This document shows, in pieces, positions 1 through 20,000 of a stretch of 20,000 bases of DNA. The notes beneath the pieces were generated by a model. The model made no database searches. It saw only the letters and a list, made by a program, of their open reading frames with translations, and was not told where the DNA came from. Source of the DNA: an uncultured virus (IMG/VR IMGVR_UViG_2061766007_000803) (Duplodnaviria; Heunggongvirae; Uroviricota; Caudoviricetes). Numbering within the stretch: position 1 is the stretch's first letter; every line of letters begins with the position of its first letter. The position numbers and the translations under genes were made by a program. Where the stretch lies: IMG/VR virus record IMGVR_UViG_2061766007_000803, one strand, 5' to 3'.

Positions 1-197
1 ATTTGCGCTTAAAACCTACCGGGGTAGAGAATAAGTATAAAGTTGAGCGTATATCCCGGTCTATTGAGAAAGACCGTTTTAGTGCGCTTGAGTATGCACT
101 TTATCGCATTAAATACTATGAAGATAAAGAAATTTTTAGAAAAAGAAAAAAGAATCTTGGTTAGTTTGGTTTCTTTACTCCTAATAATAGGAGGTGA
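1..197 (+). CDS. terL: Terminase large subunit, C-terminal end (5' truncated by window; one in-frame TAG read as Gln)
   Basis: Frame from nt 3 reads LRLKPTGVENKYKVERISRSIEKDRFSALEYALYRIKYYEDKEIFRKRKKNLG(TAG 162-164)FGFFTPNNRR-TGA(195-197). The KDRFSALEYAL motif matches the C-terminal nuclease-domain ending of phage TerL, and the gene lies directly upstream of the portal. It is not in the ORF track. Confidence 0.8.
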
Positions 198-202
198 TTT
201 TT

Positions 203-1741
203 GTGGGTTAGGANNNNNNNNNNNNNNNNNNNNNNNNNNNNNNNNATGTTCCAATGGATTCCCGTGAACGCACCTCTCGCTGGGGCGGTTACAGACATGG
301 CGGCGTACGTAGAGATTTCACGATAGAAGAAATTGAAGAAATAATCCGTTCTGGCGAGATTTCTGCTATTCGTGAATTATCTCGTTATTATTATAGAACA
401 AACGGACGTTATAGAAATAATATTGACTTTCTCGCAAGTTTGCCCTTATATGATACACTTGTTACACCGCTTTATGAGACTGGTAAAGGCTCAAAGGCGC
501 AGATAATTAAAGCTTTTTATAATGCTTGCTCTTTTGTAGAAGCTTTAGATGTTAAGAATACTTTAACCCGTATTACTCGTGAATGGTTAAAGACGGGGGT
601 ATATTATGGTATTTTACAGGAGTACGGTAATAAAGTAGTTGTATAGGATTTACCGGTACAGTACTGTCGTACACGTTATAAGGACTTTAACAACTTACAT
701 ATACTTGAATTTAATGTAGAATATTTCATTAATACTTATACGGATGAAGCAATCCGCGAAGCAGCAGTATTAAATTATCCAGAAGTTGTACAAAGAGCTT
801 GGCGCGCATGGAGAAGCGATAGTTCCAAAAAGGTTAACCCTTGGGTTATGATTCCTGCAAGTATGGGCGGGGTTACTTTCTGTTTTGCAGAAGACTAGAC
901 TCCACTTCTTATTGCGGCGATACCTGAATTAGCCAAAATGAAAGACGCAGTTGGACGTGAAGAAAAACGTGATGAAAATGAATTATATAAATTATTAATT
1001 CATAAGATGCCAGTAGATAGCAATGGTCATTTAGTATTTGAACTTGATGAAATTGAGCAATTACATGCTGGTATTGCGAGTATGCTACAAGATTTGGATA
1101 CTGTTGATGTATTAACTACTGTAGGTGATGCTACATTAGAGAATTTACAAGATTCTTCCGCGGCATCGCAAGCTAATAATAGAATTGAAAAATATAGCGA
1201 TAATGCATGGGATGCTTTAGGTAGCAGTAAATTATTTTTCAATGCTGATAATAGTTCTTCTTTAGCATATGTTATTAAACGTTTAACAAGCATTATGCGT
1301 ACATATTTAAATATGTATGATACTTGGATTCGTTTTCTAATAAATAGCCGTTTTAGTCGCACTGGTTTAACATTTGATTTTGAAATTTTACCTACAACTG
1401 AATTTAATTTGAAAGATTACGTTGGGTTCTGTCTACAATAGGCGCAATTTGGTTATCCTCGTATGCGCGCGGGTGTAGCAATGGGTGTAAAACAACGTAA
1501 TTTAGTAAGCGCACTTGATTTTGAAAATGAATTCTTAAATCTAGATGAAAATATGGTGCCATTAATGTCATCTTATACACAATCTGGTAATGAAAATTCT
1601 AACAAAAAAACTTCAACTTCAGAAAAAAATAGTAGTAGTTCAGTGTAGATAAAAGACATAACTAATAAGGGCGGAAGACCAGCGTTAGCTGATGAAGACC
1701 GTTCTCAGAAAACATAGGCAAACATTGACGCTATGGGTTAA
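203..1741 (+). CDS. Portal protein (~512 aa; TAG-recoded)
   Basis: Track ORFs 254-646, 938-1441 and 1463-1648 share one frame and are separated only by TAG (644, 896, 1439, 1646, 1715; also 209 if the start is GTG 203). The first TAA is at 1739-1741, abutting the next SD. SD AGGAGGTGA lies at 189-197. The product has IRELSRYYY, QDLPVQYCRT and a C-terminal KGGRP tail typical of portals, and lies between terL and the protease. The start is uncertain because of the N gap at 214-245. Confidence 0.85.
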
Positions 1742-1753
1742 GGAGGAAAAATT

Positions 1754-3059
1754 ATGAAAAGGAATATTCCAATTTATTTTGATAATGCCGTCATAATGTC
1801 ACCTGCTGAACCCATCGGCAATGGGTCCTCAGGTCTTAATAGATTAAGAGTTGGCGTATTTACTAAATATAGTAACCGCAATGGTTCTTATATTACTGAT
1901 GCAGTTGCCAATATGATGATTGATGGGACAATGAGCCGCCCAACTCCAGTAGTTGGATTCTTTGACCCAGAATCAAAAACATGGGCAAGTCATACCGGAC
2001 CAGACCTTGCAAATGCATATGGTTATGTAGAAGGTTTCGAAGGATGGAAGCCATTCGTAGATACCGATGGCGTTGAGCGCGAATACGCTGTTTTCTCTGT
2101 GGCTTTATTTACAAATTATTTTAATGAAGCCAATTTTGTAGTTGGACAAAATCAATCAATGGAACTTGATATTCACTCAATTGAAGGTAATTGGGCGAAT
2201 ATCGGTGACAAAGAATATTTTGTCTATACCAAAGCCGAAATCATGGGATTGTGTATCATTGGAGACCACGAACCATGTTTCTCAGTATCTTCATTCTTTA
2301 GTAAGAATGATGATGCATATAAATCTCAATATGATAAGTTCTCTTCTCTATTGGCTGATTTGAAAGCTAAAGTGGAAGAGGCAGAAAATCAACCAATCGA
2401 AGGAGGGGAACATCAAATGGAAAATGAAATGAATCCCGANNNNNNNNNNTGAAGCTCCGGCTGAAGAACCTGTAAACCAGGAGCCAGAAGCTCCAGTTGC
2501 AGATGAGCCTGCCGCTGAAGAACCAGCTGCAGAACCAGAACAGGAACCGGCTGCAGAAGAACCTGCAGAGGAACCTGCGGCTGAAGAGCCTGCTGCTGAG
2601 CCTGAAGGTGAAAAGGGTGAAGAACCCGCAGCGGAAGAACCTGCTGCAGATTTTGAAGCACAGATTACTGAACTTCAGAATCAATTAAATGAAATGACTA
2701 CTAACTACGAAAATGCTCAAACTCGTATCGCAGAACTCGAAGCCCAGATAACATCCGCGTCTGAGACTGAGACCAATCTACGTAATGAGATTGCTACTTA
2801 TGAAGCCGAGCGTGCTCGTTTAGAGGTAGAAAAGAAAAATGCTTTAATTGAACGTTATGAGAATAATCTAAATGATGACGAACTTGAAGATGTACGTAAT
2901 CATGTAGCTGAATATTCTTATAATGAAATTGAAAGCAAGTTAGCAATTACATTTGCTAATAAACAAATGGCTGGCAGTGCTGACAACAAAGTAGTTCCAC
3001 TACCAGAACCTGTTGTTGACGACTTCGCGGAATTTATGAAGAATTACCGCAAGAATTAA
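1754..3059 (+). CDS. Prohead protease / scaffold fusion protein
   Basis: SD AGGAGG at 1741-1746, then ATG 1754. The N-terminal domain (NRNGSYIT, QSMEL, GLCIIG..EPCF) is typical of capsid maturation protease-like proteins. After a 10-N gap (2440-2449) the frame at 2451 continues through an acidic Pro/Ala/Glu repeat and a coiled coil into track ORF 2694-3059 (TAA). No in-frame TAG. Confidence 0.75.
2417..3059 (+). CDS. Putative nested scaffold protein translated from an internal in-frame start
   Basis: Internal SD AGGAGGGG (2401-2408) precedes in-frame ATG 2417 (MENEMNP) exactly at the boundary between the protease-like domain and the acidic/coiled-coil region. Confidence 0.55.
2451..2648 (+). 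repeat. Coding tandem repeat (EPAAE-type units) in the scaffold region
   Basis: Translates to EAPAEEPVNQEPEAPVADEPAAEEPAAEPEQEPAAEEPAEEPAAEEPAAEPEGEKGEEPAAEEPAA, with 7 EPAA copies and varied synonymous codons. Confidence 0.9.
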
Positions 3060-3072
3060 GGAGGAATAAATC

Positions 3073-3674
3073 ATGGGTAATTATGTAAGATTTCCGATTA
3101 CCAATGTTGAAGGCGATTTAGTTGCTCAGTATCGCAATCCTAGAGAAAAGCTATATGCCAGCCTCGAACTAAACCAAGTAGCATTCCCAAAGACNNNNNN
3201 NNNNNNNNNNNNNNNNNNNNNNNNNNNNNNNNNNNNNNNNNNNNNNNNNNNNNNNNNNNNNNNNNNNNNNNNNNNNNNNNNNNNNNNNNTGGTATCGTAT
3301 ATACCACAGAAAAAGAATATGATATGATGCATTATGGTCTACAGCGCTTTGGCCGCAAGATTGCTGGGGATTATCCTCGTGTTGGTCTATTTGGCATTGG
3401 CGATACTGTAACCACCAACTGCTTACAGTATAGTAAGACTAATTTCGCTACTGAAGCGGCTTTACTAGAAGCATTAAAGAAGGACTTATCCGTTGCTGAT
3501 AACGCCCTATATGTTGTTCCTGGTGTAAACTCTGACTTAGCTGATGATTCTGCTAAGGCTGTTCCAGAAATTGTTAAGGCTGCTCCTCAATCCGGCATTT
3601 ATGGCCGTATTACTAAGTTCTACACGATTCCTAACGGCGGTATCGGCGTTAAGTATCAGATTATTAAACTATAA
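3073..3674 (+). CDS. Head decoration / capsid-stabilising-like structural protein
   Basis: SD AGGAGG at 3059-3064, ATG 3073. Track ORFs 3073 and 3324 join across the N gap at 3195-3289 (GIVYTTEKEYDMMHYGLQRF...), ending TAA 3672-3674. It lies between scaffold and capsid, has high-expression codon usage and no TAG. Function is inferred from position. Confidence 0.6.
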
Positions 3675-3688: not shown

Positions 3689-4797
3689 ATGGATAGACTA
3701 CATATGTTAATGAACGGTGTATTTGGTCGCGCCNNNNNNNNNNNNNNNNNNNNNNNNNNNNNNNNNNAAATTATGATTATGAAGCCGCTCTCCGTGATGA
3801 ATTAGCAAAGCTAATGACCAAGGATGGCGTACACTTCAATCGTCACGTCTTCAATCGTAACAAGGAAGACGTATTTGAACTCCTAGAAGAAAATCTACAG
3901 GAAATGCTTCCACAGAACATTAAGAGTGCTCTCGATATGTTCGTAGAAGTAAAGCATTATGCTCAGGGCCAGCGCCCAGAGTTCCGCGTTGTTCGCGGCA
4001 AGATTCGTGGCAAGCAGTTTGTAACTCGTGCTACCGAATCTGGTAACTATGAGACCTTCCGTCTAGACCGTGATCGCTTTGATTTATACATCCAGGCAAT
4101 CGGCGGCGCTGGATATGTTGACTTCGAACGTTATCTTGATGGTCTTGAAAACATGACCGATATCTATGAAGTAATCCAGGAAGGTATTGTTGACCGTCTA
4201 TTCGAAATGGTACAGGAATGCTTACTAGCTTCTTGGAACGCTGCTGGCCGTCCAGTACGTAACAAGGTAGCTGCTAATACCTTCAATCCTGCTGCTATGA
4301 AGAAACTTTGCAACACCGTTGCTCCTTATGGCTCCCCAATTATCTATTGCACTCCTGAGTTCGCCGCAGAAATGGTAAATGCTATTATTTATAATGCAAC
4401 CACCAAGATTTCTGATGTTGACATGCAGGAAGTTCGCGACCGTGGATACATTGGTAAGTTCCAGGGTGTACCAGTTGTTGTTATGCCTCAGTCCTTCACT
4501 GATGAGAAGAACGAGAAACTAATGTTCAACCCATCTTTCGCTTATGTCCTACCAGCTGGCAAGGAAAAGATTATTAAGATGGCATTTGAAGGTTCTCCTT
4601 ACTTCCGTGAGTGGGATGACCACGAAGGCGACAACCAGTTCACTCTACAGGGCTATGTAAAGGTTGGTGTTGGCCTATTTACTACTCCTAACTACTGGGG
4701 CATCTATTACAATAGTGCTCTAGACGATGGTTCTGGTTGGGAAACCTATAATCAGGCTCTAGTTCCTACTTTTGATGACGGTACCGCTAATTCCTAA
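3689..4797 (+). CDS. Major capsid protein
   Basis: SD GGAGGTG at 3676-3682, ATG 3689 (MDRLHMLMNGVFGRA), N gap, then track ORF 3814-4797; about 370 aa. It contains GYIGKFQGVPVVVMPQ, typical of HK97-fold capsids, has strongly biased codon usage, is followed by a terminator and has no in-frame TAG. Confidence 0.85.
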
Positions 4798-4876: not shown

Positions 4877-5314
4877 ATGATTAGAATTAAAAACGTAAGT
4901 ACTTCGCTCGTATCTTTATATGTGCCAAGTATTAGATTAAATCGTGAATTGACGCCAGGGCGCGCAATTCCAGTATCCCAGGAAGAATATGAAGAACTAA
5001 CTTTCGATCCTGGTTTTATGGCTCTTGTTAATGGACATTATGTTGTAATTGAGGGCATTGAAGAAGAACGCCAGGTAACAGAAGTTGGCCCTGTATTTGA
5101 AGCAAGCAAAATTGAAAAGATGCTTCTTGAAAATGATGTAGCTGCTTTTATTAAGTTTATTCCAAATGCAACTGAAGCAGAAAAGGAAAGCGCAGTTACA
5201 TTAGCAGTCGAGCATAAGATTACCAATTCTGGTATCGTAGCTTTAATTAAGAAATACTGCGACGTTGATGTTATACAGGCTATTGCAGCTAAGCACGACG
5301 CAGAAGAGAAGTGA
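4877..5314 (+). CDS. Hypothetical phage protein (145 aa) following the capsid gene
   Basis: SD AAGGAGG at 4861-4867, complete ORF, TGA stop, no TAG. Confidence 0.8.
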   Translation: MIRIKNVSTSLVSLYVPSIRLNRELTPGRAIPVSQEEYEELTFDPGFMALVNGHYVVIEGIEEERQVTEVGPVFEASKIEKMLLENDVAAFIKFIPNATEAEKESAVTLAVEHKITNSGIVALIKKYCDVDVIQAIAAKHDAEEK

Positions 5315-5320
5315 TGAAAA

Positions 5321-5782
5321 ATGGCAACACCCTTCTTAAAGGTTTATGATGCTTTTCTCGCGCGAATAACCGCCGATGAATGGACATTAGAAGAAGAGTT
5401 AGCTATCGTTGAACGAGATTGGCAAGAGCTTCTCAAAATGGCTATTGCTCGGTTTAAATATCCTCGTGTGAGTTTAGATTTTGAGGAGGTTAACGCCGCT
5501 GAAGATGAAGAAAACGCTCCTCAACTTAAAATATATTAGTTTACTAGTGATTTAACCAATGATGAAATTCAGCTTCTTGCAGTTTATATGAAGCATGAAT
5601 GGATTAAACGTTGTGTTGCTAGTTGGGAACATATTGGTCAGCTCTATACTTCAAAGGATTTCTCTGCCGCGAATCACTTAGATAAATTAAACGACCTTGA
5701 AGCAAATGTGTTGCGTGAGGTCGAAGAACAGTAGGATATATATGATAGGTCTAGAGGAAAAGTCCCTGCAGATATCTTTAGA
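5321..5782 (+). CDS. Head-tail adaptor / neck-type protein (TAG-recoded; 3' end in N gap)
   Basis: MATPFLKVYDAFLARIT... reads through TAG 5537 and TAG 5732 (FTSDLTNDEIQLLAVYMKHEWIKR...KDFSAANHLDKL) up to the gap at 5783-5792. The FSxANHL motif and position suggest a head-completion protein. Confidence 0.6.
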
Positions 5783-5792
5783 NNNNNNNNNN

Positions 5793-6061
5793 CTAAAGTC
5801 ACATTTGATGGCTATAAAGGTAAACTAAAAGGACGTCTATATGGACTACTTTGTGAGCGCGAAAAAGACGGAGAATGGGAAAAATTCCTTGATACTCTAA
5901 TCATTGAATTACGAGGCTTGGGAGCCAATTCTATTAATTGGTGGCCGCTTATGGGTAAATTAAATGCATTAAAATATATGTCTTATGAATATTTTAGAAA
6001 GACAATATTTGAATGTATTAATTTAGTTGGCGGTTTAGATATCCCGGATGAATTACGTTGA
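5793..6061 (+). CDS. Small hypothetical protein (start lost in N gap)
   Basis: Open frame from 5795: KVTFDGYKGKLKGRLYGLLCEREKDGEWEKFLDTLIIELRGLG...YEYFRKTIFECINLVGGLDIPDELR-TGA (6059-6061), overlapping the next start at 6048. It is missed by the ORF track. Confidence 0.7.
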
Positions 6062-7242
6062 TGTATATTTTTCCCGTGTAAATCACTTTGGAGAAACGCC
6101 AGCTGAACGAATTAAAAATAGCGGGATTGTGGCTTTTGAAAAATGGATGGCACAATCTCCATTTACAGTTACTGACTTATCCGTAGAACGTGGTTACTAT
6201 TTTAGCGGCATAATACAAACCAATAAGGATAAGGAAGAAAAGAAAATCATGTATTTGTATGTTGCTAATGATATACCAATTGTTGTTGGTGATATACTTA
6301 CATGGAGACAAGATAATGGAGCCATTGAAAAATGGCTTTTATTATAGAAAGAGCATAAAGTGCATGAATAGTATCAAACATTTTAGATAATTAAATGTAA
6401 TTATGAATTAAGATGGATTGATGCTGATGGCTATTTACATAAGTCTTGGGCTTATGCAGTAAGTTCGGTAGATAGTAAAGTTAAAGGTAATTTCCGTATG
6501 TGGCATTCACTAATTTCACCACAGCCTAATAAGTTTGCAGAAATTATTATGCCAAGACCCGAATTAAAAGGTACTGATAAAGATGAATTAATGCGTGGAA
6601 TTACTTTTATTATTGAGAACGAAGGTTGGGTAGTTATTGAATGTGACTGGACTAGCGTTGAAGGTATTGTTTATATGTCTTTAACTGAAAGTAAAGTAAA
6701 CTATCAATATGATGACCGTGATTTAGACGTCGCGGCTCTTGATAGATATAAATTCCCAATTTTACAGCCATTATATAAGGTAGGAGATTATATTATACCA
6801 GAATTTGAGCCAGAAACGCTGAATGAATGGGAAATTGAATTAATTCCTACAAATAGTGCATTAGTTCAAAAAGATGAAGAAAGTGGTCACTGGCAGGCAA
6901 TCGCGGCCGGTAAGCTAANNNNNNNNNNNNNNNNNNNNNNNNNNNNNNNNNNNNNNNNNNNNNNNNNNNNNNNNNNNNNNNNNNNNNACTGCATATATCG
7001 AAGGGCCAGATGAAATTAGATTAGATAGATATGCGACTTATAAATTACATGGAACTAGCGAAATAATTGGCGCAGTTACATTTGATTTAGAAGAATCACC
7101 ATATGCTAGCGTATCTAATATAGGAACTAATGAAATAGCAATTCATGCCAATGCTAAAAATAAATTAGGGGAAGTTATTTTAAGCGCTACGTATAATGGG
7201 GTAACCTATACGAAGACAATTAAAATAGTACCTCTATGGTGA
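6048..7242 (+). CDS. Head-closure / head-tail joining-type protein with beta-rich (Ig-like) C-terminal extension (TAG-recoded)
   Basis: Track ORFs 6048-6347 and 6498- are in one frame joined via TAG 6345, 6369 and 6384 (VGDILTW...WLLLQKE...FQIIKCNYELRWID). After the gap at 6919-6987 it reads TAYIEGPDEIRLDR...YTKTIKIVPLW-TGA (7240-7242). Confidence 0.6.
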
Positions 7243-7252: not shown

Positions 7253-7759
7253 ATGCCAGTTAATGAACCAACACAGCGGCGATTCGCAGTTATGGGCACA
7301 AATGCATTTAATATCGCCAATAAACTAATGCAAAATTAGCGTTTATGTCGTCTTCTTAAATACCAAGTAAGAGACCCTTTTGATGAATAGAAATATGAGA
7401 ATGTTGATGGAGTATTACTCCTAAATAAGCAAATTATGATTACTCCCAAAATTTGGGACGAAAGTACGGAGAAAACTTCATATATAGTTGCATTGTTCGA
7501 TGATTTTACTACCAACTTAATAAATCCAGATTACAAGATAGATACAATTAGTTTTGATATAGCTTGTCCTTATGATGAATGGGTTTTAAGTGGTACATCA
7601 TTACGCCCATATCTTATTATGGAAGAAATTGATAAGATGTTTAATGGCGCGCAAATGTCTGGTATTGGAACATTACAATTTGTAAGAGCAGATAGAAATG
7701 TATTTACCTCACAAATTGGCGGCTACACTATGAAGTATAGTATTAATGAATTTAACTGA
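7253..7759 (+). CDS. Tail completion / tail terminator-like protein (TAG-recoded, 168 aa)
   Basis: SD GAGGTGA at 7241-7247, ATG 7253. It reads through TAG 7337 and 7388 (NKLMQNQRLCRLLKY) into track ORF 7436-7759 (FDIACPYDEW...RPYLIMEEIDKMFN), TGA stop. Function is inferred from position. Confidence 0.6.
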
Positions 7760-8523
7760 TTCAGATGTTCTCAAGTTTCAAAAAGGTAGTCCGGTATTTA
7801 TAGACGATATTTGCGCGGTTTATCCTGCAACTCTTGGAGAGATTGTAGACCTTGGCTATGATAAATTTCAACAATATTTATCAATTGCTACTGCAACGAA
7901 ACCTATAACAAACAAAGCTGATAGAGAATTAAATGAATNNNNNNNNNNNNNNNNNNNNNNNNNNNNNNNNNNNNNNNNNNNNNNNNNNNNNNTTAGCAAC
8001 AAATGCATTGTTTAAACAAGCATTACATTTCTTTACACATGAAGAAATAACAATTGTTTCTAATCCACCCAGTATTCTCGTTGGCCCTTTAGTAGAATAG
8101 CGGATTATGAATGAACAATAGTTTTATGACTTTCAACATTTAATTAGGCGCATGTATTTTCTTGAAACTGAAGCCGATGAAATTATTATATATTAGAATG
8201 ATGACCCAATCACACGAAGTATAAAAGAGAAGATGCGCGCAAATAGAGAAAAGGTTAGAAAGGCAAAAGCAAAGTAGAGTCAAGGTAGTGATTCCGATAT
8301 GAAATTATCGGACCTCATTGGTAGTATGACTATCAATGATTGTGGCCTAAATATGGTAAATATTTGGGATATTACATATTATGCTTTTCACGATTAGCTA
8401 AAGCGGATGGGCTGGCGTGACTAGTTTAATATAAATTAGAAAGCCGCCCTCGCGGGCGCGAAAATCAAAAAATCACAGTTAAAGCATTGGATGCGTTCCA
8501 TTGCAAGCTCTGATAAATCATGA
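7746..8523 (+). CDS. Conserved hypothetical tail-assembly-region protein (TAG-recoded, ~258 aa)
   Basis: ATG 7746 overlaps the upstream gene. After the gap at 7939-7992 the frame from 7993 is open except for 7 TAGs (8098, 8119, 8194, 8275, 8395, 8422, 8437) and ends at TGA 8521-8523, just before the tail-tube SD. It contains NIWDITYYAFHD(TAG)LKRM and AALAGAK. Confidence 0.75.
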
Positions 8524-8543
8524 TTTATAAGGAGGTAACTTTT

Positions 8544-9515
8544 ATGGCAAGTAACGTTAATATTTTTGATAAGTATGGCATTAAAGAAGTTGCTAACGTT
8601 TACTTTGAGGCTCTAGATGACGATGCTGCTGCTGGCGTATACGCTGGTGATATCGTTCTATTCCTAGATACTCTAAAAGTTTCCACCATTGAAACTACTG
8701 CCGAGAATACCGCTGCACAGGGCGGTTGGGGTAATCCAAAACTCGTACAGTGGGACTATGGTAAGGAAATTAATATTACTCTAGAAGATGCTCTAATGTC
8801 CTTAGAATCCCTACGTTTCATGTTAGGCGGTGCTATTAAAAAATCCGGCGTAGACGGTGCTAAGGTAGTAGTACGTCATACTGAAGAAGTTGTTTGCACC
8901 ACTGGTGGCGCGGTTCCACTACCAAAAGACCATCTTACTAATGCAACACTACATCCAGTTGCTACTTATGAACATCCAATTCGTTTAATCAACTTAACAA
9001 CCGGTGCTCGTACTCAGCTAAAGCCAGCAACTGCAGCTGCAGCTTCCATCTCCATGGATGGCGAAAAGGCTATTCAGTTTGTTAATCCTAAGATGCTTGG
9101 TGCTGAACCAGAAACCACCAAGGCTGGCGACCACATTCGTATTTTCTGGGAAGAAGAAGTAGCACAGTCTGGTACAGATGCTGATAGCGCTGTTGAAGTA
9201 ACTATTTCTCCTGATACCTTCCCAGGCACCTATCGTGTTGTTGGTGATACCTTCATGCGTTCTGAGAAGACCGGTAAGGATGAACCCTTCCAATTTGTTA
9301 TCAACAAGGCAAAGGTACAGAGCAACGTTACCATCACTCTACAGGCTGAAGGCGATCCTTCTACCTTCGAGATGACTCTAAACGTACTCCGTTCTACCAA
9401 CGATGAAGGTCAGAACGAAATGATGAAGCTAGTTCGTTATAATATTGAAACCGCAACCGCTTCTGGTTCTGGTGACGATATTGGTTCTCTAACCGTAGCG
9501 ACCTCTGCTGGCTAA
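8544..9515 (+). CDS. Major tail (tube) protein, 323 aa
   Basis: SD AAGGAGGT at 8529-8536 favours ATG 8544 over the track start at 8520. Motifs include YGIKEVANV, AQGGWGNPKLVQWDYGKE and ITLQAEGDPSTFEMTLNVL. It has high-expression codon usage, no TAG, and a terminator follows. Confidence 0.8.
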   Translation: MASNVNIFDKYGIKEVANVYFEALDDDAAAGVYAGDIVLFLDTLKVSTIETTAENTAAQGGWGNPKLVQWDYGKEINITLEDALMSLESLRFMLGGAIKKSGVDGAKVVVRHTEEVVCTTGGAVPLPKDHLTNATLHPVATYEHPIRLINLTTGARTQLKPATAAAASISMDGEKAIQFVNPKMLGAEPETTKAGDHIRIFWEEEVAQSGTDADSAVEVTISPDTFPGTYRVVGDTFMRSEKTGKDEPFQFVINKAKVQSNVTITLQAEGDPSTFEMTLNVLRSTNDEGQNEMMKLVRYNIETATASGSGDDIGSLTVATSAG

Positions 9516-9562: not shown

Positions 9563-9579
9563 AATAGGTGGTGATGCCT

Positions 9580-10505: not shown

Positions 10506-13500
10506 ATGGGTCAAGCGAGCATTAATGTTGATATACTTGCTAAAGTTAAAGGCTGGCAAGAAGAATTAAACAAATTAAAAGCTGCCGCTAGTAAAATTGA
10601 CATTGGCTCTAGTTTTGGAAAATAGTTTGCANNNNNNNNNNNNNNNNNNNNNNNNNNNNNNNNNNNNNNNNNNNNNNNNNNNNNNNNNNNNNNNNNNNNN
10701 NNNNNNNNNNNNNNNNNNNNNNNNNNNNNNNNNNNNNNNNNNNNNNNNNNNNNNNNNNNNNNNNNNNNNNNNNNNNNNNNNNNNNNNNNNNNNNNNNNNN
10801 NNNNNNNNNNNNNNNNNNNNNNNNNNNNNNNNNNNNNNNNNNNNNNNNNNNNNNNNNNNNNNNNNNNNNNNNNNNNNNNNNNNNNNNNNNNNNNNNNNNN
10901 NNNNNNNNNNNNNNNNNNNNNNNNNNNNNNNNNNNNNNNNNNNNNNNNNNNNNNNNNNNNNNNNNNNNNNNNNNNNNNNNNNNNNNNNNNNNNNNNNNNN
11001 NNNNNNNNNNNNNNNNNNNNNNNNNNNNNNNNNNNNNNNNNNNNNNNNNNNNNNNNNNNNNNNNNNNNNNNNNNNNNNNNNNNNNNNNNNNNNNNNNNNN
11101 NNNNNNNNNNNNNNNNNNNNNNNNNNNNNNNNNNNNNNNNNNNNNNNNNNNNNNNNNNNNNNNNNNNNNNNNNNNNNNNNNNNNNNNNNNNNNNNNNNNN
11201 NNNNNNNNNNNNNNNNNNNNNNNNNNNNNNNNNNNNNNNNNNNNNNNNNNNNNNNNNAATGAATTTGTTACTAACAATCTTGCTACTTTAAATGATGCAA
11301 GAAATCGTTTACAAGAATCTATAAGACAGCTTTATCCCGAATCAGACGCAGCAAAATTAGCAGAAAATTTTGTTAATGCTGTAAAAAATGGTAATTGGGA
11401 AGAAGGAAAGTAGGCTTTATAGGAAAAGTTAGGCGAGTATAAAATTGCTATTGATGGCAGAAAAGCAGAAATAGAAACTTCTTTAAAAGAAATTACTGAT
11501 TTAATTAATAATACTCGCTCTGATATGCAAGCAAAACAATATACTCAGGGCGTTACTAGAGAGGCTCTTGAAAAAGATTGGCCTGAATTAGTTAGATAGT
11601 TAACTGAGCAAAATAAGAACTTAGATGATAGAGTTAAGAAATTAGAAGCTGAACTCGCATAGAAAGTTAGCGGAATGGTTTCTGATGTAAGAGCCACTGG
11701 CGTAAATACAATGCAATAGTCAAAAGCAGCTCTTATGGAAAATGCTAATGCCGCGAAAGTATATAGAACTGAATTAGAAACAGTATAGGCAAGAGAACAA
11801 TTAGTTGGAAAAGTTCAAGGGGTTGTACAACGCTGGTTTAGTATTTATGCCGCAGTTCGTATGGTTTCTAATGCAATTAGGTCTATTATTTCTACTGTAA
11901 AAGAATTAGATGCAACAATTACAGAAATTGCAATTGTTACTAAGATGGATTAGAATTAGTTATGGGGCCAAATGGATACTTATACTTCTATGGCTCGAGC
12001 ATACGCTGCATCTATTTCTGGTGTATATAAAGTTTCTCAGTTATACTATCAACAGGGTTNNNNNNNNNNNNNNNNNNNNNNNNNNNNNNNTTAACTGAGC
12101 AAACATTAAAAATGGCTCGTATTTCTGGTTTGGATTATGCACAAGCAACTGACTATATGACGAACGCAGTTCGTTCTTTCAAACTAGAAATGACAGATGC
12201 TCAAAGTGTTGTAGATACATATTCAGCTATCGCGGCAAAATCTGCTACAAGCGTAACTGAATTAGCAACCGCTATGAGTAAAACTGCTTCATCTGCACAA
12301 TCTGTGGGCGCAAGTTTACAGAGCACTACTGCAATGATGGCAGTAATGATTGAAGCTACTCGTGAATCTCCAGAGAATATCGGTTCTGCTATGAAATCTA
12401 TTATTTCTCGTTATGGTGAATTAAAAGAGAATAAAACCGGTATAGATGCTGAAGGTGAAGAATATAATTTAAACAAAGTTGATAAGGCATTACAAACTGT
12501 TGGTTTAAGTATTCATGATGTAAATGGTGAATTCCGTGATTTTGATGACGTTATTATGGAATTAGCAGAAAAATGGGATACTATTGATAAGAATACATAG
12601 CGTTACATTGCTACTATTATGGCTGGTAACAGACAACAGTCTCGTTTCTTAGCATTGGTATCTTCTTATGACCGTTTAAAGGAATTAACTGCTGAAGCCG
12701 CGGATTCTGAAGATGCATCACAATTACAGTTCTTAAAAACACTTGATTCTGTAGCAGCAAAGACTCAATAGCTACAAACAAGTTTACAATCTTTATATGT
12801 AGATACAGGAATTGAAAAATTATATAAGGGATTATTAGATACAATTAATAATATAGTAGTATCTCTTACTAACTTACCAACAGTAATGGATTTACCAATT
12901 CCTGCTATTACTAAGATAGCTACAACCTTTATGAGTTTAGCAAACATAGTTACAACTATGTTTGGAATTATAAAGGCTTCCGTAAGCGCGAGATTAAAAT
13001 AGCTTTCTCAAGAAACTATCGCTGGCGTAGAAGAAACTGTCGGCACTAGTAATACGGCCTATCAATAGGATGTTGATAATTTTACTACAGCAGCACAGAG
13101 AAAAGTAGAAGTTGAAAAATAGGCTTAGGAATAGATTAGAGAAGCCAGATAGGGCAGTAATGTAGATCCGTCTACAATTGGTGGAGGCTCTGGAGGAAAA
13201 GGTGCCAGTGGAAAAGTAAAAGTTACTAGAACTATGGCATTAACAGGAGTTGCATTAAATCTCGCGGGGTTAGCTTTATAGACCGCTGCTGATAAAAAAG
13301 ATGAGCGAACTAAAGCAAACAGATAGTCAAAAGCCGCTTTAACAGGGATTAGTAATCTACTTTAGGGTGCGGGCTTAGGATTATCTATTGGTGGAATAAA
13401 GGGCGCTGCGATTGGTGCTGGTTTAGGTATACTTAAAGGTGCAATTGAAGCAATTGGTATTGCCACTGAAACTGTAAAAGAAAAAGTTGATAATTTATCA

Positions 13501-16500
13501 CATTCAATAGAAGAAGCCGGTAACAAGAGAATACAATCTAAGGCTGAGTTAAAAACTTTAGAAGAATATAAAGCTAGATATGATGAGTTAAATAAAGCTT
13601 AGTATGAAAGTGCAGAAAAGAAACAAGAATTTATTAGTTTATAGAATGAAATTGCCGCGACTTATCCAGAATTAATTCAAAGAATGACAGAAGAGGGCAA
13701 TTATGTTGTAAACATGACAGAAAGCTATAAACGTCTTGTTGAAGCTAAGCGTGAAGCATATAAAGCCGATTTAATTGAATCCATTTCTGCTGAAGTAACT
13801 GGTTTAAGTGATGTTGATTATATTTTAAAAAGTCTTTATGGACATACATCTTTAGAGTCTAAAAAGAACTTTATTGGTTGGGAAACTGATAATTATGAAA
13901 AATTACTTAATATGGATTACAGTTCTCCTGTACTTACTAAATATTCTGAAATATTTGATGCATTTTCAGATAGAACACAATATAAAGATTATAATACAGC
14001 TAGACGTTTATTTAATGGTAATAATTATTTTAATTCTAATACTCCATTAACTTTTGATTTTATAGGCGGNNNNNNNNNNNNNNNNNNNNNNNNNNNNNNN
14101 NNNNNNNNNNNNATATATAGAATTTGTTAGAGCAATGAAAGAAGGTTTAGATTTAAATTCCGCAAAAACTTAGGTTCGCAATCAATTTGGTGAAAAATAC
14201 GAAGAATTAATTAATAATTTTGATGTATAGTTCTATAAAGAATTATAGCTAAGATATTTAGTTCCAAAGTTTTAGGATACTTTGACCACGAACGCTTTAA
14301 GTTCTTATGCAACAGAATATGTACATATTTTAGCTGNNNNNNNNNNNNNNNNNNNNNNNNNNNNNNNNNNNNNNNNNNNNNNNNNNNNNNNNNNNNNNNN
14401 NNTCTGAATGGAACTCTGAGTTTAGCGCGAAGTATTTGGCGGCAAAGGATGAAGATGAAAGAAAGTAGATACTTCAAGATTTCTTTACTAGCCATGAAGA
14501 AGTTTGGGCACAAACTNNNNNNNNNNNNNNNNNNNNNNNNNNNNNNNNNNNNNNNNNNNNNNNNNNNNNNNNNNNNNNNNNNNNNNNNNNNNNNNNNNNN
14601 NNNNNNNNNNNNNNNNNNNNNNNNNAAATTGGAAAGTAAATGAAGTAGAAAAAACAAGAAAAGAATTCTTTGATAGTATTTTTGAAAATGATTACAAAGA
14701 TATAATTAATACTTATAAAAACTGGATATCACAAGAAGATACTTCACAATATGGAGCTAAAGATTATTCTAATGTATTTGGGCCAGACTTNNNNNNNNNN
14801 NNNNNNNNNNNNNNNNNNNNNNNNNNNNNNNNNNNNNNNNNNNNNNNNNNNNNNNNNNNNNNNNNNNNNNNNNNNNNNNNNNNNNNNNNNNNNNNNNNNN
14901 NNNNNNNNNNNNNNNNNNNNNNNNNNNNNNNNNNNNNNNNNNNNNNNNNNNNNNNNNNNNNNNNNNNNNNNNNNNATTAGACTATTATTGGAAATAGTAA
15001 TTTATCAGATTCCTTAAAGAAAGAATAGGTTAAAGGTTTAAATAATATATATGATATTATTGCTAGTGATGCATTGAATANNNNNNNNNNNNNNNNNNNN
15101 NNNNNNNNNNNNNNNNNNNNNNNNNNNNNNNNNNNNNNNNNNNNNNNNNNNNNNATTGACTCTTTAAGTGGGGTTGAAGGATTAAATTTAGATACAGCTG
15201 GTCTTACTGATGCTATTCTCAATTTTAGAAAATATCTTTATGTAAATATTAATACAGAAATAGAAAATATTATTAATACTTATACTTCAAATATTTCTGA
15301 TTTAGAAAAAGATATTTCTTCTGCTGTTAATGGCATGGATTTTAAATCTGCTTCTGAAATGGCAAATAAAATAGGAAAGCCATTATCTGAATTTAGATTT
15401 TATGCTGGAAAATNNNNNNNNNNNNNNNNNNNNNNNNNATTATAGAATATTATGAAAGTCAAAATAAAGATTATTTAAATGATTTAAACACAGAATTTTC
15501 TACCGTTAAAGATAAATTTGCTTCATTAAATGTAAGTAAACGAGTAGTANNNNNNNNNNNNNNNNNNNNNNNNNNNNNNNNNNNNNNNNNNNNNNNNNNN
15601 NNNNNNNNNNNNNNNNNNNNNNNNNAAATAGAAGCAGCAGGATTAACCGTATAGCAATTAAAAAGTGTATATTATACCGCACGTAATGCTACTTATAATA
15701 GTTAGGGTCATTATGACGAAAAGAAAACTATTGAAAATTTTAATCAAAGATTATTAGAACTACTAGAAAATTCTCCTAAAATTGAAGAAATATCTTCATT
15801 AAGTATTGATGATTTAATTGAGGTAAATAAAACTGAGCAAGAATTAAAAGATGCCCTTTCTAAGGAAGATACCGCGAAACGTTTAGTTGATGCTGGTTTA
15901 ACTATTGACTAGGTATTATTCTATGCTCAAGAATATCGTAATCGTGCAGAAGAGGATATTAATAAATCTTTTATTGAATGGCTAGGAGATTATTTACAAC
16001 AATTATGGAATTCTACTGTAGCAGAAACAGATAAATACACATAGTATTTATCTGCTAGTTCTATGTTATCTTCTGGTAATATTAGTGGTTTCGTTGATAA
16101 AACTTGGGGAGAGCAAAGAAAGAAGCAAATTCGTGCAAATATAGAACATAGCGCACATTGGAATAATGCTACAATAGAATAGATTAATGAAGAAGTTGAG
16201 CGACAATATAATGAATTACCAGAAAGACAAAATTTAATTGAAGCAATTAGTCGTGGTGNNNNNNNNNNNNNNNNNNNNNNNNCTGAATTAATTTATAATA
16301 CATATAAAGATGTAGCTTCTAATATTTTTACTTCTTTAGTCGATGGAATTAATAATGGCGATACACAAATAATTGTTAATGATAAGAATAAAAATATTTT
16401 AGACAAGATGCGTCAAGATGGGTTTGTTATTGGTGGTACTGAAGGAGAACTCAAAGAAGGCGATATTGTATAGATTGCATCTGAAGTATTAAATGGGACT

Positions 16501-19500
16501 AAATCTTTAAATGAGTGGATTAATGAAGTATATACAAATGAATCCGAACGTTTAAAGGCTATATAGGAATATCACGCGGCTATTACAGGCTCCAAATATA
16601 CTTAGATAACATCCTTAATGGATAATGATTAGACGGTAGAATTTAATGATTTTACAAATTATTTAAGTACTTCTGGAATTTTAAGTAGTAATTAGTTATT
16701 TACTAATGATAATAAGATTAGCCAAGAACTCAAGGATAATTTAGATAAGTATGGTTTAAAATATAATGAAGCAGCTGGTAATTTCATTATTGAAAACGAA
16801 GAGAAATATTTACAATCATTAATAGATGATTTAGGTACTCTTAACAATTCTAATTCTACTCTTGAATAGCGTAATGAATTACGCGCAAGGATTTCTAAAA
16901 TAAAGCATANNNNNNNNNNNNNNNNNNNNNNNNNNNNNNNNNNNNNNNNNNNNNNNNNNNNNNNNNNNNNNNNNNNNNNNNNNNNNNNNNNNNNNNNNNN
17001 NNNNNNGCACGAGTAAACTTAGTCTTCAATATTTTAATGATTTACTAAATGAATCAAATCTTTCTGATACTACTCGTGCAGTGATAGAAGAACTACTTAG
17101 CGGAATTTTAGATGATTATCTTAGCGGTATTTCTAATGCTGCAGGATATACAGTTAATGGCACCAAAAAAATATCTGATATGCAAAAGTTCATTAATGAA
17201 TATAATGAACATAATGAACATATATCAGTTGCAGATGCATTTAAATGGGATGAAATTTTAGATAGCTGGACATTAAAACCAGAATATCTAAAAGCATATT
17301 TAAATTCTCAACGAGAAGCACTGATTTCTGAAGGATTTGATGAAAATTATATTAATAGTTATATTTATTCAGAAATTGAGTCTATCAAGAATAATGTCGA
17401 TATTTCTGGTTTCTTATCTGCAGAACCAAGCGCACAATCTCGTCGTACATTAGAAAACGCAATGAAAGCCGCTCTTGCTGTAAGCACCGAGTTTACACAA
17501 GAAATTATTAATGCACAAGTAGAAACTGATATTCATGCTCTTGAGTCTGGCGGCGAAGNNNNNNNNNNNNNNNNNNNNNNNNNNNNNNNNNNNCGTATCA
17601 TTACTACTGAAGAAATTGAAAATGCTTTCTATCATGCCGCGAATGTACTTCAAGATGCTTTAAGTTCTTTAGGAAGTATTACTGTAGGACAAATTACTAC
17701 CGGTAAATTAAAAGAACATTTAGCAAAAGCAGGAATGATAGACGCAGATGGCGTTATTACTTCTGTAAAAGAAATGGTAGCTGTTTATGCAAGTATTTAT
17801 GAAGAAATGAAAAATACTGCAGGAACTACTACAGCTGATTTAAATAGTGCTTTTGCAGAAATATTAACAGCACAAGATAAGCAACGTACAGATGCTTTAG
17901 ATACTTTAGAAAACGCTTCTGGTATGACGTATGATGCTTTCGCTGAGTTATTAACATCTTATAATTTAAGTTTTGAGGAAGTTTTAACTTAGGCACAAAG
18001 TTATGGAGTACAAACAACCGGTTTTGGAAAGATTCGCATTGTTGATTTTAAACAATTTGCAAGTATGATGGGCTGGGATATTAATAGTCCAGAATATGCT
18101 GAAGCTTATAATAATTGGGTTAATAGCATGACTGAACTACAAAACCAACCTATTACATTAATGCAAAATGCAACAGAACAATTATCTGGAATTCTTGAAG
18201 CAAAACCAAATCAAAGAATGAATGTATCTTATTTAGAAAGAACATTCAATCTTATTGGAGAAGATTTAGGAGCCATTGTTGGAAAATATGGTGCAGAATT
18301 ACACAATGGTATTTTAACTGTTTCTGAAAATACAGATATTCCTAATCTTGTTGCTGAAATCGCTAATGTCGCCGCGGAAGCTGGAGCAATAATTCCAGAA
18401 GAACTTGCAAAATTAGCAGATGCGGTTAAAGAAACACTTGCTTCTATTGTTTCTTTACTTTCTGGTGGTTTAAGCGGTAATTTAGATAATGCTCAAAAGC
18501 AATAGTTAAGTGAATGGGCAAGTCTTCATGGAATAGAAAGATTAACATTCACTGAAACCGCAGAAGGATTTAAACTCGCTAATGGTTCTGCAATTGAATT
18601 GGTACAGAAAGTTCGTGAATTAGACGCTTTACAAGGTGAAGTTGCATTTGGTCACCTTAAAGATAATTTAATCGCAACTGAAGATATTTTTGCTACTGTA
18701 ACAAGTCAAGCTGCAGATTTAGCAGATTTACAAGCATTTGTAGATTATGAAAAGTTTAAAAAAGAGATAATTCAAAATAGTAATAAGGTTGAATTATTTG
18801 ATGAATTACAAGCAAAAGGTAATGTTTAGAATCTATATAACCGTAAACGTATTAATAATGCAGACGGTTCATATTCTACACTATTAACCACAACTTTAGA
18901 TTCCCGTAATTTTGAAACGGATGTTCCTTGGATAATGAACATTACGCCAATTACAGAGGATGGAAAAATATTATCTGAAGAAGAATTAAGTAATTATGTT
19001 AAAGAATTAATTGAGGGTACAAACGGCAAGTTAGAGTCTGTAATGAAAGCTGATAAAGAAGGTTTAAGTTTAATTCTTGAAATGGCTGANNNNNNNNNNN
19101 NNNNNNNNNNNNNNNNNNNNNNNNNNNNNNNNNNNNNNNNNNNNNNNNNNNTAGTGAAGCTTATGAAGCTGTTAAGGCTGGCGAAACCTATGATGATACT
19201 AAGATACAGCAATATGAAGAAGAATTAAGACTAAATCAAGAAATTCTTGCATTACGTTCTACTTCACAAGATAGTACATTTAGCTTCATGTCTAATAAGA
19301 TACCTGGAGCACAAAATAATCCTATTAATTATATGGAAAATTGGTTTAGCGCGATGTCTACTATTGATGATTCCGTTAAATCTGGCTGGATGGATTATAG
19401 TAATTTCTATAATATCATTACAGCAATGGGAGAATTATCAAAGATAACAGGCGAAGCAATTCCAATTGGTACAGATATTGCAGTTAATAGTGAAAACGTT

Positions 19501-20000
19501 GCTCAACTTATCGAACAAGCAGCCGGTTATATGAAAATTGATGCCAGTGATGGAAAGTATAAGATTAATTTATCTGGACTTTCTCAAATGGGTATTGATT
19601 TTGCGGCTGCGGGTGTAGATATGAAGGGTAATGTCACCGAGGGTATACATGATTATGCATAGGCTCAAGTTGAAATGCTTGATGGTATGATTCAAGTACT
19701 TGAAACTATTGTAGCTATGTAGAAACTTGGTGAGATTACAGGTGCCGACAATAAGATTGATATGACTGATTTATTCCCAGAATTTAATATGGATGATGAG
19801 AATGAAAAGCATATCATGAATAATGAAAAAGCAATAAAATGGGCAGAAGAGTTATTAAGTTCATAGANNNNNNNNNNNNNNNNNNNNNNNNNNTATAGAA
19901 TATCAAAATAAACGGACTATCATTACATGATTTACTAACAGATGCAATAACTGAAGGTAAGGGTCTTAATGAAGAAAATGCGAGATTATTGTCAATAGCG
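10506..20000 (+). CDS. Giant tail tape measure protein (TP901-type core; >3,100 codons; TAG-recoded; 3' truncated by window)
   Basis: SD AAGGAG at 10491-10496, ATG 10506 (MGQASINVDILAK). Every ungapped segment has one + frame interrupted only by TAG (~47 by hand count), with no TAA/TGA. Tape-measure core motifs at ~11890-12700 include VKELDATITEIAIVT, YYQQG, ATRESPENIGSAMKSIISR and DKNT(TAG)RYIATIMAGNRQQSRFLAL. A gene boundary hidden in an N gap cannot be excluded. Confidence 0.85.

What the first reader, a model, noticed from the sequence alone, without database searches (positions are those of the whole stretch)
1..20000. Amber (TAG) stop codon reassigned to a sense codon, most likely Gln, across the structural operon
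Seen: about 74 hand-counted in-frame TAGs interrupt otherwise continuous frames (terL 1, portal 6, neck 2, head closure 3, tail completion 2, gene 7746 7, second tube 6, tape measure ~47). All 11 visible true gene ends, each abutting the next SD, start or terminator, are TAA or TGA. Inference for Gln: TAG is one transition from CAG, CAG is scarce where TAG is common, and TAG falls where I recall Gln in homologous motifs (DKNT*RYIAT, FHD*LKRM, VVV*DLP). Established: TAG-to-Gln (table 15) recoding is known in gut and animal phages, concentrated in late genes and usually supported by a phage suppressor tRNA(CUA). The phenomenon is known, but this lineage may be new.
Basis: partly seen in the sequence, partly recalled or inferred. 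Interest (0 to 1): 0.85.

Follow-up and report, generated by a model that had tools for sequence, protein, structure and literature searches.

The report
Phage reads TAG stop as glutamine

Summary
Confirmed. The + strand holds one run of phage head and tail genes: TerL end, portal, capsid-module genes, two tube-like genes and a tape measure of about 3,000 codons. In 5,600 readable in-frame codons there are 71 TAG, no TGA and one TAA (a gene end); about 470 TAA/TGA would be expected. All 14 gene ends are TAA or TGA. Reading TAG as sense lifts ORF cover from 0.68 to 0.97.

Gln is the best reading of TAG, by 33 log-likelihood units against standard-code relatives and 42 against recoded ones. TAG swaps with CAA/CAG between relatives. 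CAA+CAG+TAG restores the family's Gln share of 3.7%.

The window has no tRNA. A tRNA(CUA) is present in 11 of 12 recoded relatives' records; no release factor or GlnRS/GluRS was found in the 5 complete relatives searched. This is code-15-type recoding, published for crAss-like, Lak and phAss-1 phages: a new member of a known kind.

Side results in relatives, which this scan had already noted on other DNA:
- One sublineage reads TAG as Glu.
- The Gln-type suppressor carries an extra hairpin showing a Gln anticodon.
- In three genomes its gene is split by a group I-type intron.

The parts
3..197 (+). 3' end of the large terminase gene (5' open); 1 in-frame TAG at 162; ends TGA
   Evidence: 88% identical over 64 aa to the end of the phrog_2 TerL-like gene of relative G001. 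Q in 19 of 21 standard-code relatives opposite the TAG.
194..1741 (+). Portal gene; 6 in-frame TAG (about 209, 644, 896, 1439, 1646, 1715); ends TAA
   Evidence: phrog_2739 portal, E 1.4e-66, when TAG is read through. Counts; columns.
1754..2452 (+). Gene with a weak phrog_3313 match; 0 TAG; ends TGA
2694..3674 (+). Three small genes (2694-3059, 3073-3327, 3324-3674); 0 TAG; ends TAA, TGA, TAA
   Evidence: no family match
3814..4797 (+). phrog_4088 gene (PHROGs gives no function; by place a candidate major capsid protein, not tested); 0 TAG; Gln codons CAA 0 / CAG 14
4877..5314 (+). Small gene; 0 TAG; Gln CAA 0 / CAG 3
5321..6061 (+). phrog_3853 gene; 2 TAG (5537, 5732); ends TGA
6048..7013 (+). 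Gene with phrog_10703/5251 matches; 3 TAG (6345, 6369, 6384); ends TGA
7253..7759 (+). phrog_6123 virion structural protein; 2 TAG (7337, 7388); ends TGA
7746..8523 (+). phrog_4051 gene read in two frames across the N run 7939-7992; 7 TAG, all after the run; ends TGA
   Evidence: Both pieces hit phrog_4051, profile positions 5-55 and 84-245. Counts.
8520..9515 (+). First phrog_2729 virion structural (tube-like) gene; 0 TAG; Gln CAA 1 / CAG 8; ends TAA
9568..10500 (+). Second phrog_2729 paralogue; 6 TAG; ends TGA
10497..19911 (+). Tape measure region, read in pieces because the frame changes at N runs; 45 countable TAG; may be one gene ending at 19228 or 19911 (both TAA)
   Evidence: PF10145 at 1.7e-24 and phrog_4211 at 1.6e-51 on 12112-14193. 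Open segments and counts. The G001 counterpart is 5,227 codons with 144 TAG.

Best explanation
The window is the late (virion) gene block of a large tailed phage, from a family with genomes of about 180 kb, in which UAG is translated as glutamine.

Shown:
- TAG sits inside conserved genes that contain no TAA or TGA.
- It stands where relatives have Gln.
- It swaps with CAA/CAG between relatives.

Inferred from relatives (the window has no tRNA and its genome is not held):
- The phage brings its own tRNA with anticodon CUA.
- That tRNA takes the place of the family's tRNA-Gln(CUG).
- It is loaded with Gln by a host enzyme, since no phage GlnRS/GluRS or release factor is found.

The replication genes carry no TAG, so they can be made before the suppressor acts. 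Most virion genes need the suppressor. The few made in bulk (gene 3814, first tube-like gene 8520) avoid TAG and use CAG.
For: Sense use of TAG:
- 71 in-frame TAG against 0 TGA and 1 terminal TAA in 5,600 codons, where about 470 TAA/TGA would be expected.
- ORF cover rises from 0.68 to 0.97.
- Family matches span the TAGs.
- The same habit is seen in independent contigs. 50 of the 75 portal loci analysed carry 2-11 in-frame TAG and none carries TAA/TGA. 5 of the 80 fetched loci had cut matches and were left out.

Gln, against standard-code relatives:
- 54 of 70 TAG sites aligned; 3 of these lie in a doubtful overlapping ORF.
- Majority residue: Q 19, K 10, E 4, S 4.
- Log-likelihood: Q -135.4, next H -168.2 and K -168.8.
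- Top hit only: Q -123.7 against K -142.1.
- Of 11 sites where at least 80% of 10 or more relatives agree, 7 are Q.

Gln, against recoded relatives:
- 60 sites. Log-likelihood: Q -164.3, K -206.1, E -207.5, S -211.5.
- Codons opposite window TAG: TAG 157, CAA 58, GAA 30, AAA 19, CAG 17.
- Window CAA faces TAG 138 times.

Budget: window CAA+CAG is 2.6%, and adding TAG (1.2%) gives 3.7%. Standard-code relatives have 3.7-3.9%.

Relationship: the window is sister to L006 (82% portal identity) inside an all-recoded clade of 35 rows (quick tree).

Decoder:
- tRNA(CUA) is present in 11 of 12 recoded records: G001-G004, G006 and G008-G013 have it; G007, 80% complete, does not.
- None was found in 3 of 3 standard-code genomes scanned whole.
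- Model R1 gave no match of 50 bits or more in 5 of 5 standard-code records.
- Recoded G001, G004, G006 and G010 lack tRNA-Gln(CUG), which the three standard genomes have.
- The G001 suppressor shares its acceptor stem with G001's own tRNA-Gln(UUG), apart from position 72.
- Among 29 long-arm suppressors, 28 have G73 and none has a G-C pair at 1:72. All 11 tRNA-Gln of the family show the same end.

Timing, in G001:
- TAG count is 0 in DNA polymerase, RecJ, primase, DnaB, Sak4, both topoisomerase II subunits, NrdD, and the DNA and RNA ligases.
- TAG count is above 0 in TerL, portal, tail genes and the tape measure.
Against: - Q is the majority residue at only 19 of 54 aligned sites. 4 of the 11 best-conserved sites show E, T, W or N.
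- Sites 162, 1646 and 6345 show a TAG/Ser/Gln mix among recoded relatives.
- The window has no tRNA and its own genome is not held. The decoder is therefore borrowed from relatives.
- The Gln-type suppressor has a long variable arm, the shape of Ser/Leu/Tyr tRNAs. Nothing here shows which amino acid it carries.
- A sublineage of the same family reads TAG as Glu. Family membership alone therefore does not fix the meaning.
- About 10% of the window is N, and frames across the N runs are inferred.
- There is no peptide evidence.
Confidence: 0.9

Rival explanations
1. TAG is sense but means glutamate, as in the G008/G009/L073 sublineage of the same family.
For: Three relatives give Glu by the same test. 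At sites where three standard genomes agree, G008 shows E at 36 of 49 and G009 shows E at 124 of 151. E is the majority at 4 of 54 window sites.
Against: For the window, log-likelihood is Q -135.4 against E -180.3, and Q -164.3 against E -207.5. Window TAG faces CAA/CAG far more than GAG in close relatives. The Gln budget closes at 3.7%. The window's clade of 35 rows, and every one of its members tested, gives Q.
Confidence: 0.03
2. TAG means Ser (or Leu/Tyr), because the suppressor has the long variable arm of class II tRNAs, which seryl-tRNA synthetase recognises by shape.
For: Long variable arm and G73. Ser is the commonest non-TAG residue at 6 of 60 sites among recoded relatives.
Against: Log-likelihood for S is -211.5 against Q -164.3, and -187.4 against -135.4. 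Window TCA does not face TAG among its 8 commonest partners. The arm's loop holds a Gln anticodon (CUG 24, UUG 5 of 29) and not a Ser-type arm sequence. The 1:72 pair is weak, as in tRNA-Gln, whereas the family's tRNA-Ser(GCU) have G1-C72 in 7 of 7.
Confidence: 0.03
3. TAG is read through without a phage tRNA in this phage: by a host suppressor, or because the host itself uses a TAG-sense code.
For: No tRNA in the window. One recoded relative (G007, 80% complete) showed no tRNA(CUA). Published surveys find suppressors in only about 40% of TAG-recoded phages (passage of bioRxiv 10.1101/2021.08.26.457843).
Against: 11 of 12 recoded relatives' records carry one, including the nearest. Three would have been missed without an intron-aware search. 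This suggests that 'missing' suppressors are often a detection failure.
Confidence: 0.05
4. The TAGs are real stops: a decayed or mis-assembled phage.
For: The window is a gapped sequence with 23 N runs.
Against: There are 0 TGA and 1 terminal TAA in 5,600 in-frame codons. TAGs at the same columns recur in many independent contigs. Complete relatives with terminal repeats show the same pattern.
Confidence: 0.01

Closest known systems
TAG-to-Gln ('code 15') phages: crAss-like, Lak and the gemstone clades of Borges et al. (bioRxiv 10.1101/2021.08.26.457843, passages read); proteomic proof in crAss-like phages (PMC9523058, abstract seen in listing)
   Same: In-frame TAG in late/structural genes, Gln opposite TAG, a phage tRNA(CUA), standard-code close relatives, and TAG rare as a stop in those relatives.
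   Different: A different phage family: a siphovirus-like module with a huge tape measure and genomes of about 180 kb. No RF2 was found. I could not compare sequences with the named clades (Agate, Sapphire, Jade), so membership in one of them is open.
phAss-1 / proposed Phassvirus group (PMC10607447, passages read)
   Same: Large gut phages with TAG in virion genes, read as Gln, with tRNA-Sup(CUA) and no own synthetase. phAss-1 carries a 91-nt long-arm tRNA(CUA) identical to IMG/VR copies of the family found here.
   Different: The portal is only 27% identical, and phAss-1 is 136 kb. The paper's main text never uses the word 'variable', so the arm is not discussed there.
E. coli amber suppressors charged with Gln (supE; su7 tRNA-Trp CUA). 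Recalled from textbooks; also named in an earlier scan note.
   Same: A CUA anticodon with a weak 1:72 pair and G73 favours glutaminylation.
   Different: Those are point mutants of cell tRNAs with normal short variable loops. The phage tRNA has an added hairpin, and in some genomes an intron.

Membership tests
Stop-codon-recoded phage, TAG to Gln (NCBI table 15 usage) | In-frame TAG in conserved genes while TAA/TGA stay stops | tested here: met
   71 TAG, 0 TGA and 1 terminal TAA in 5,600 in-frame codons; 14 of 14 gene ends are TAA/TGA.
Stop-codon-recoded phage, TAG to Gln (NCBI table 15 usage) | Coding density rises by at least 10% when TAG is read as sense | tested here: met
   0.68 to 0.97 on the + strand. 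TGA-sense and TAA-sense give 0.72.
Stop-codon-recoded phage, TAG to Gln (NCBI table 15 usage) | Gln is the residue opposite TAG in homologues | tested here: met
   Q is best by 33 (mean over relatives) or 18 (top hit) log units against standard-code relatives, and by 42 against recoded relatives. The Gln budget closes.
Stop-codon-recoded phage, TAG to Gln (NCBI table 15 usage) | Phage-encoded tRNA with anticodon CUA | not testable with these tools
   No tRNA in the window and no genome held. Present in 11 of 12 recoded relatives' records.
Stop-codon-recoded phage, TAG to Gln (NCBI table 15 usage) | Peptides with Gln at TAG positions | not testable with these tools
   No proteomic data on hand.
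phAss-1 group (proposed family around Phassvirus) | Clusters with the group in trees of signature proteins | tested here: inconclusive
   phAss-1 is the second-best GenBank portal hit at 27% identity; Enterococcus phage EF1, named in the paper as possible kin, also hits. No joint tree was made.
phAss-1 group (proposed family around Phassvirus) | Long-arm tRNA-Sup(CUA) of the same family | tested here: inconclusive
   Shared between phAss-1 and relatives of the window. The window's own genome is not visible.

The most novel reading that the evidence does not exclude
The window belongs to a phage family that has captured the same stop codon for two different amino acids.

- Most lineages, the window's included, read TAG as Gln. 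They use a tRNA(CUA) that replaced tRNA-Gln(CUG) and carries an extra hairpin displaying a Gln anticodon (CUG or UUG). That hairpin may be what makes the host's Gln-charging enzymes accept it.
- One sublineage (G008, G009, L073) reads TAG as Glu through a short, different tRNA(CUA).
- In three Gln-type genomes the suppressor gene is split between U35 and A36 by a group I-type intron. Decoding of the late genes would then wait on splicing.

The two meanings are well supported. The roles of the hairpin and the intron are conjecture.
Probability: 0.5. Interest if true: 0.8.

Novelty: new member of a known kind. Interest (0 to 1): 0.4.

Why it matters
For this window the practical point is annotation. 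Under table 11 the portal, tail and tape-measure genes fall to pieces; they must be called with TAG as Gln.

The wider value lies in the family around it. It holds standard-code, TAG=Gln and TAG=Glu members at about 56-62% protein identity, many with complete genomes. That makes it a natural series for asking how a stop codon is captured, how a host synthetase is made to load a stop-codon reader, and why surveys fail to find suppressors (introns, odd shapes). It also shows that 'TAG-recoded' must not be equated with 'table 15' without testing the residue.

Tried and rejected
- DNA search of 8 kb against GenBank phages: no match.
- Pfam gave only PF10145 on the tape measure above its cut-off, so a Pfam-based Codetta-type test was not possible. 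I used relatives instead.
- Rfam on the window: nothing.
- Whole genome of the window: not held.
- Release factor (PF00472) and GlnRS/GluRS (PF00749) in 5 complete relatives: none.
- Overall sequence likeness of the suppressors to other tRNAs did not name an isotype.
- The G1.U72 + A73 end of the short suppressors is shared with tRNA-Glu, but also with Ile, Leu and Arg tRNAs, so it is not decisive.
- Rfam at gathering score missed the introns in the suppressor genes. They appear only below the cut-off of 50 bits: 46 bits, E 1.3e-10 in G010, and 36.5 bits, E 6e-8 in G004.
- The careful tree search did not finish, so the quick tree is what I cite.
- ARAGORN's intron mode chose another splice point in G010 (anticodon 'aag'). 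I read CUA from the identical intact homologue L160.
- I considered the N runs as possible hiding places of frameshifts or introns and could not test it.
- Literature: four searches turned up no paper on TAG=Glu in phages, on the long arm of phage tRNA(CUA), or on a group I intron in a suppressor tRNA. PMC13037316 (passages) does report introns in tRNAs of recoded jumbo phages in general. bioRxiv supplements were not open to me.
Full report
WHAT IS IN THE WINDOW

The window is 20,000 bases, 31.8% G+C, with 1,978 N in 23 runs of 10-626 bases. All sizeable genes lie on the + strand.

With TAG read through, PHROGs names the following:
- a portal (194-1741, phrog_2739, E 1.4e-66);
- phrog_4088 (3814-4797);
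- phrog_3853, phrog_6123 and phrog_4051;
- two phrog_2729 'virion structural' paralogues (8520-9515 and 9568-10500);
- a tape measure (phrog_4211, E 1.6e-51).

Pfam gives PF10145 on the tape measure. The 5'-open frame 3-197 is the end of the large terminase: it is 88% identical to the end of the TerL-like gene of the nearest complete relative. The window has no tRNA and no Rfam family.

TAA/TGA-free frames of at least 100 codons cover 0.97 of the + strand. Table 11 gives 0.68; treating TGA or TAA as sense gives 0.72.

In 5,600 in-frame codons free of N there are 71 TAG, no TGA and one TAA, which is a gene end. The off-frame rate of TAA+TGA (8.4%) predicts about 470. In-frame TAG (1.27%) is about half as common as off-frame TAG (2.28%). 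All 14 gene ends are TGA (9) or TAA (5).

One caveat is that frames jump across several N runs. For example, both halves of gene 7746 hit phrog_4051 in different frames. The runs therefore do not keep length, or they hide something. The tape measure is read in pieces, and its end (19228 or 19911) is open.

THE SAME HABIT IN INDEPENDENT CONTIGS

The portal finds 119 relatives in IMG/VR; 80 were kept, at 57-80% identity. I analysed 75 of them; 5 had cut matches and were left out. Of the 75, 50 have 2-11 in-frame TAG in the portal, 25 have none, and none has TAA or TGA.

Several come from complete genomes of 177-188 kb with terminal repeats.

Among loci of at least 6 kb, 51 behave as recoded, 33 as standard code and 2 are unclear.

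A quick IQ-TREE tree (the careful search did not finish) puts the window next to L006 (82% identity), inside an all-recoded clade of 35 rows. The code label needs three changes on the tree, and at least two are forced by supported branches.

WHICH AMINO ACID

I asked, for each amino acid, how well it predicts the residues that relatives show opposite the window's TAGs. The substitution frequencies came from the same alignments.

Against standard-code relatives (L071 dropped):
- 54 of 70 TAG sites aligned; 3 lie in a doubtful overlapping ORF at 1935-2360.
- Majority residue: Q 19, K 10, E 4, S 4, T 3, R 3, A 3, D 2, and six others once each.
- Log-likelihood: Q -135.4, H -168.2, K -168.8, E -180.3, S -187.4.
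- Top hit alone: Q -123.7, K -142.1.
- Of 11 sites where at least 80% of 10 or more relatives agree, 7 are Q. The others are E, T, W and N.

Against recoded relatives:
- 60 sites. Log-likelihood: Q -164.3, K -206.1, E -207.5, S -211.5.
- In alignments of at least 65% identity, window TAG faces TAG 157, CAA 58, GAA 30, AAA 19 and CAG 17.
- Window CAA faces TAG 138 times, second only to CAA itself.

A composition test agrees. Standard-code relatives spend 3.7-3.9% of codons on Gln. The window spends 2.6% on CAA+CAG, and 3.7% once TAG is added. Four Gln-lineage genomes behave alike (3.7-4.0%).

Results that pull the other way:
- Q is the majority at only about a third of sites.
- K and E, one base from TAG, are common.
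- Three sites show a TAG/Ser/Gln mix among recoded relatives.

HOW IT IS DECODED (FROM RELATIVES)

Genome G001 (L006's record, 181,407 bases) has 30 tRNAs. One has anticodon CUA; there is a tRNA-Gln(UUG) but no tRNA-Gln(CUG). The three standard-code genomes scanned whole have both tRNA-Gln and no CUA.

The G001 suppressor is 93 nt with a long variable arm. Its acceptor stem and positions 8-10 equal those of G001's own tRNA-Gln(UUG), except at position 72.

A pattern scan that left the arm unconstrained found 43 such genes in IMG/VR, 29 distinct:
- 28 of 29 have G73.
- None has a G-C or C-G pair at 1:72.
- The acceptor pairs covary.
- All 11 tRNA-Gln of nine family genomes show the same kind of end.

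One copy is identical to the tRNA annotated in phAss-1. Its authors call it Gln by tRNAscan-SE (passage).

After I had seen the arm, the scan's earlier notes offered a reading: the arm is a second hairpin showing a Gln anticodon loop. I tested this on my set. All 29 have N-U-YUG-N-N in the arm (CUG 24, UUG 5), flanked by 2-5 complementary bases. Only the two Gln anticodons occur. Folding the arm alone often prefers a shifted stem, however, so the 7-base loop is not proven.

With a model of the family (R1):
- Six recoded records score 80-100 bits.
- No standard-code record reaches 50 bits.
- Three recoded genomes that seemed to lack a suppressor (G004, G006, G010) have the gene split by an intron between U35 and A36. 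The introns are 175, 177 and about 290 nt. They match Rfam's group I intron over the whole model, but below its cut-off of 50 bits: 46 and 36.5 bits.
- G008 and G009 have a short tRNA(CUA) instead.

In all, 11 of 12 recoded records carry a tRNA(CUA). No release factor and no GlnRS/GluRS gene was found in 5 of 5 complete relatives.

WHERE TAG IS USED

In G001 a crude call gives 193 genes, 92 of them with TAG and 505 TAGs in all. I scanned 41 genes of at least 280 codons against PHROGs; six genes crossing piece boundaries and the tape measure were left out.
- TAG-free: DNA polymerase, RecJ, primase, DnaB, Sak4, both topoisomerase II subunits, NrdD, DNA ligase and RNA ligase.
- TAG-bearing: TerL, a sigma-factor-like gene, tail genes, a helicase-like gene, a methyltransferase and PhoH.
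- The phrog_4088 and first phrog_2729 genes are TAG-free, as in the window, where they also use CAG almost alone.

The replication block ends its genes in TAA or TGA in 18 of 19 cases. Standard-code relatives end only 6-8 of about 107 long ORFs in TAG.

A SECOND MEANING IN THE SAME FAMILY

Running the residue test on each of 51 recoded loci gave Q for 48. It gave Glu for L062, L073 and L115, by 43-63 log units. L131, on the same contig as L073, was nearly tied.

L062 and L115 belong to G008 and G009, the two records with the short tRNA(CUA). Genome-wide results against three standard genomes:

| Genome | Aligned TAG sites | LL best | LL second | Sites where all 3 standard genomes agree |
|---|---|---|---|---|
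| G008 | 189 | E -444.1 | Q -514.8 | 49: E 36, Q 2 |
| G009 | 477 | E -1054.4 | Q -1293.7 | 151: E 124, Q 6 |
| G001 (control) | 239 | Q -603.5 | K -748.7 | 67: Q 40, E 6 |
| G004 (control) | 290 | Q -754.1 | K -911.5 | 67: Q 46, E 3 |
| G006 (control) | 263 | Q -687.2 | E -846.1 | 51: Q 34, E 5 |
| G010 (control) | 274 | Q -692.4 | K -829.0 | 69: Q 45, E 7 |

The cross-comparison is the clearest result:
- TAG of G009 faces E 135 times in G001.
- TAG of G001 faces Q 45 times in G009.
- TAG seldom faces TAG between the two lineages: too rarely to reach the six commonest partners listed for G009 versus G001 (fewer than 9), and 8 times for G008 versus G001.
- Two Gln-lineage genomes equally far apart share 30-44 TAG-TAG columns.

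Neither G008 nor G009 has any tRNA-Glu. Their suppressor ends in G1.U72 + A73, like 6 of 7 tRNA-Glu of the family, but that end is not exclusive to Glu. The scan had already noted TAG=Glu phages on other DNA. My searches are an independent check on different records.

The passages I read of Borges et al. state that only TAG to Gln and TGA to Trp were seen in phages.

VERDICT

The finding is correct in observation and in interpretation. It describes a known kind of recoding in a phage family that is abundant in public viromes but, as far as my four searches show, unnamed. The window itself adds a new member. What is unusual lies in its relatives.

Noticed in passing
Relatives G008 (L254-L262), G009 (L263-L271), L062, L073, L115: A sublineage of the same phage family uses in-frame TAG where relatives have Glu, not Gln. 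At sites conserved across three standard genomes, E appears at 36 of 49 (G008) and 124 of 151 (G009). TAG of G009 faces E 135 times in G001, while TAG of G001 faces Q 45 times in G009. Each genome has one short tRNA(CUA) and no tRNA-Glu.. The scan noted TAG=Glu phages before on other DNA.
   Followed up: yes
L142-L184 (alignment A1); G001:5318-5410 (-): The Gln-type suppressor tRNA(CUA) is 86-95 nt with a long variable arm. The arm always holds a U-YUG motif (CUG 24, UUG 5 of 29 distinct genes), like a second Gln anticodon loop. G73 is present in 28 of 29, and 1:72 is never G-C. An identical copy is annotated in phAss-1 (OQ749652.1, 62442-62532)..
   Followed up: yes
G004:140729-140991; G006 about 117710-117978; G010 about 101722-102109: In three recoded relatives the tRNA(CUA) gene is split between U35 and A36 by an intron of 175, 177 or about 290 nt. 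The introns match Rfam group I introns below the cut-off (36.5 and 46 bits against 50). A plain tRNA search misses these genes..
   Followed up: partly
Whole genomes G001, G004, G006, G010 versus G005, G014, G015: Standard-code genomes carry tRNA-Gln(CUG) and tRNA-Gln(UUG). The Gln-lineage recoded genomes carry only tRNA-Gln(UUG) plus the CUA tRNA, as if the suppressor took the place of tRNA-Gln(CUG).
   Followed up: partly
window, 23 N runs (e.g. 7939-7992, 10632-11257, 14070-14112, 16910-17006): About 10% of the window is N. The reading frame changes across at least six runs, so the runs do not keep the true length or they hide something. An earlier scan note reports group I introns in the terminase and tape-measure genes of a look-alike phage. 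I could not test that here.
   Followed up: no
window 1935-2363 (+), frame 2: A TAA/TGA-free frame with 4 TAG overlaps gene 1754-2452 and still found one relative at E below 1e-8. It may be a frame change in this gapped sequence, or chance.
   Followed up: no
window 3814-4797, 4877-5314, 8520-9515: The TAG-free, probably most abundant virion genes encode Gln almost only by CAG (CAA/CAG: 0/14, 0/3, 1/8). TAG-bearing genes prefer CAA. This fits selection on codon choice in highly expressed genes.
   Followed up: partly
G001:75585-76907 (+), just upstream of TerL: A sigma-factor-like gene (phrog_5767, E 2e-20) carries 9 in-frame TAG, so a likely late transcription factor would itself depend on the suppressor.
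   Followed up: no
L230 955-1143 (G010): A 189-base match to the Rfam tRNA model (50 bits) suggests another interrupted tRNA gene in this genome.
   Followed up: no
G001:90125-105808 (+): The tape measure of the nearest complete relative is a single open frame of 5,227 codons with 144 TAG.
   Followed up: no
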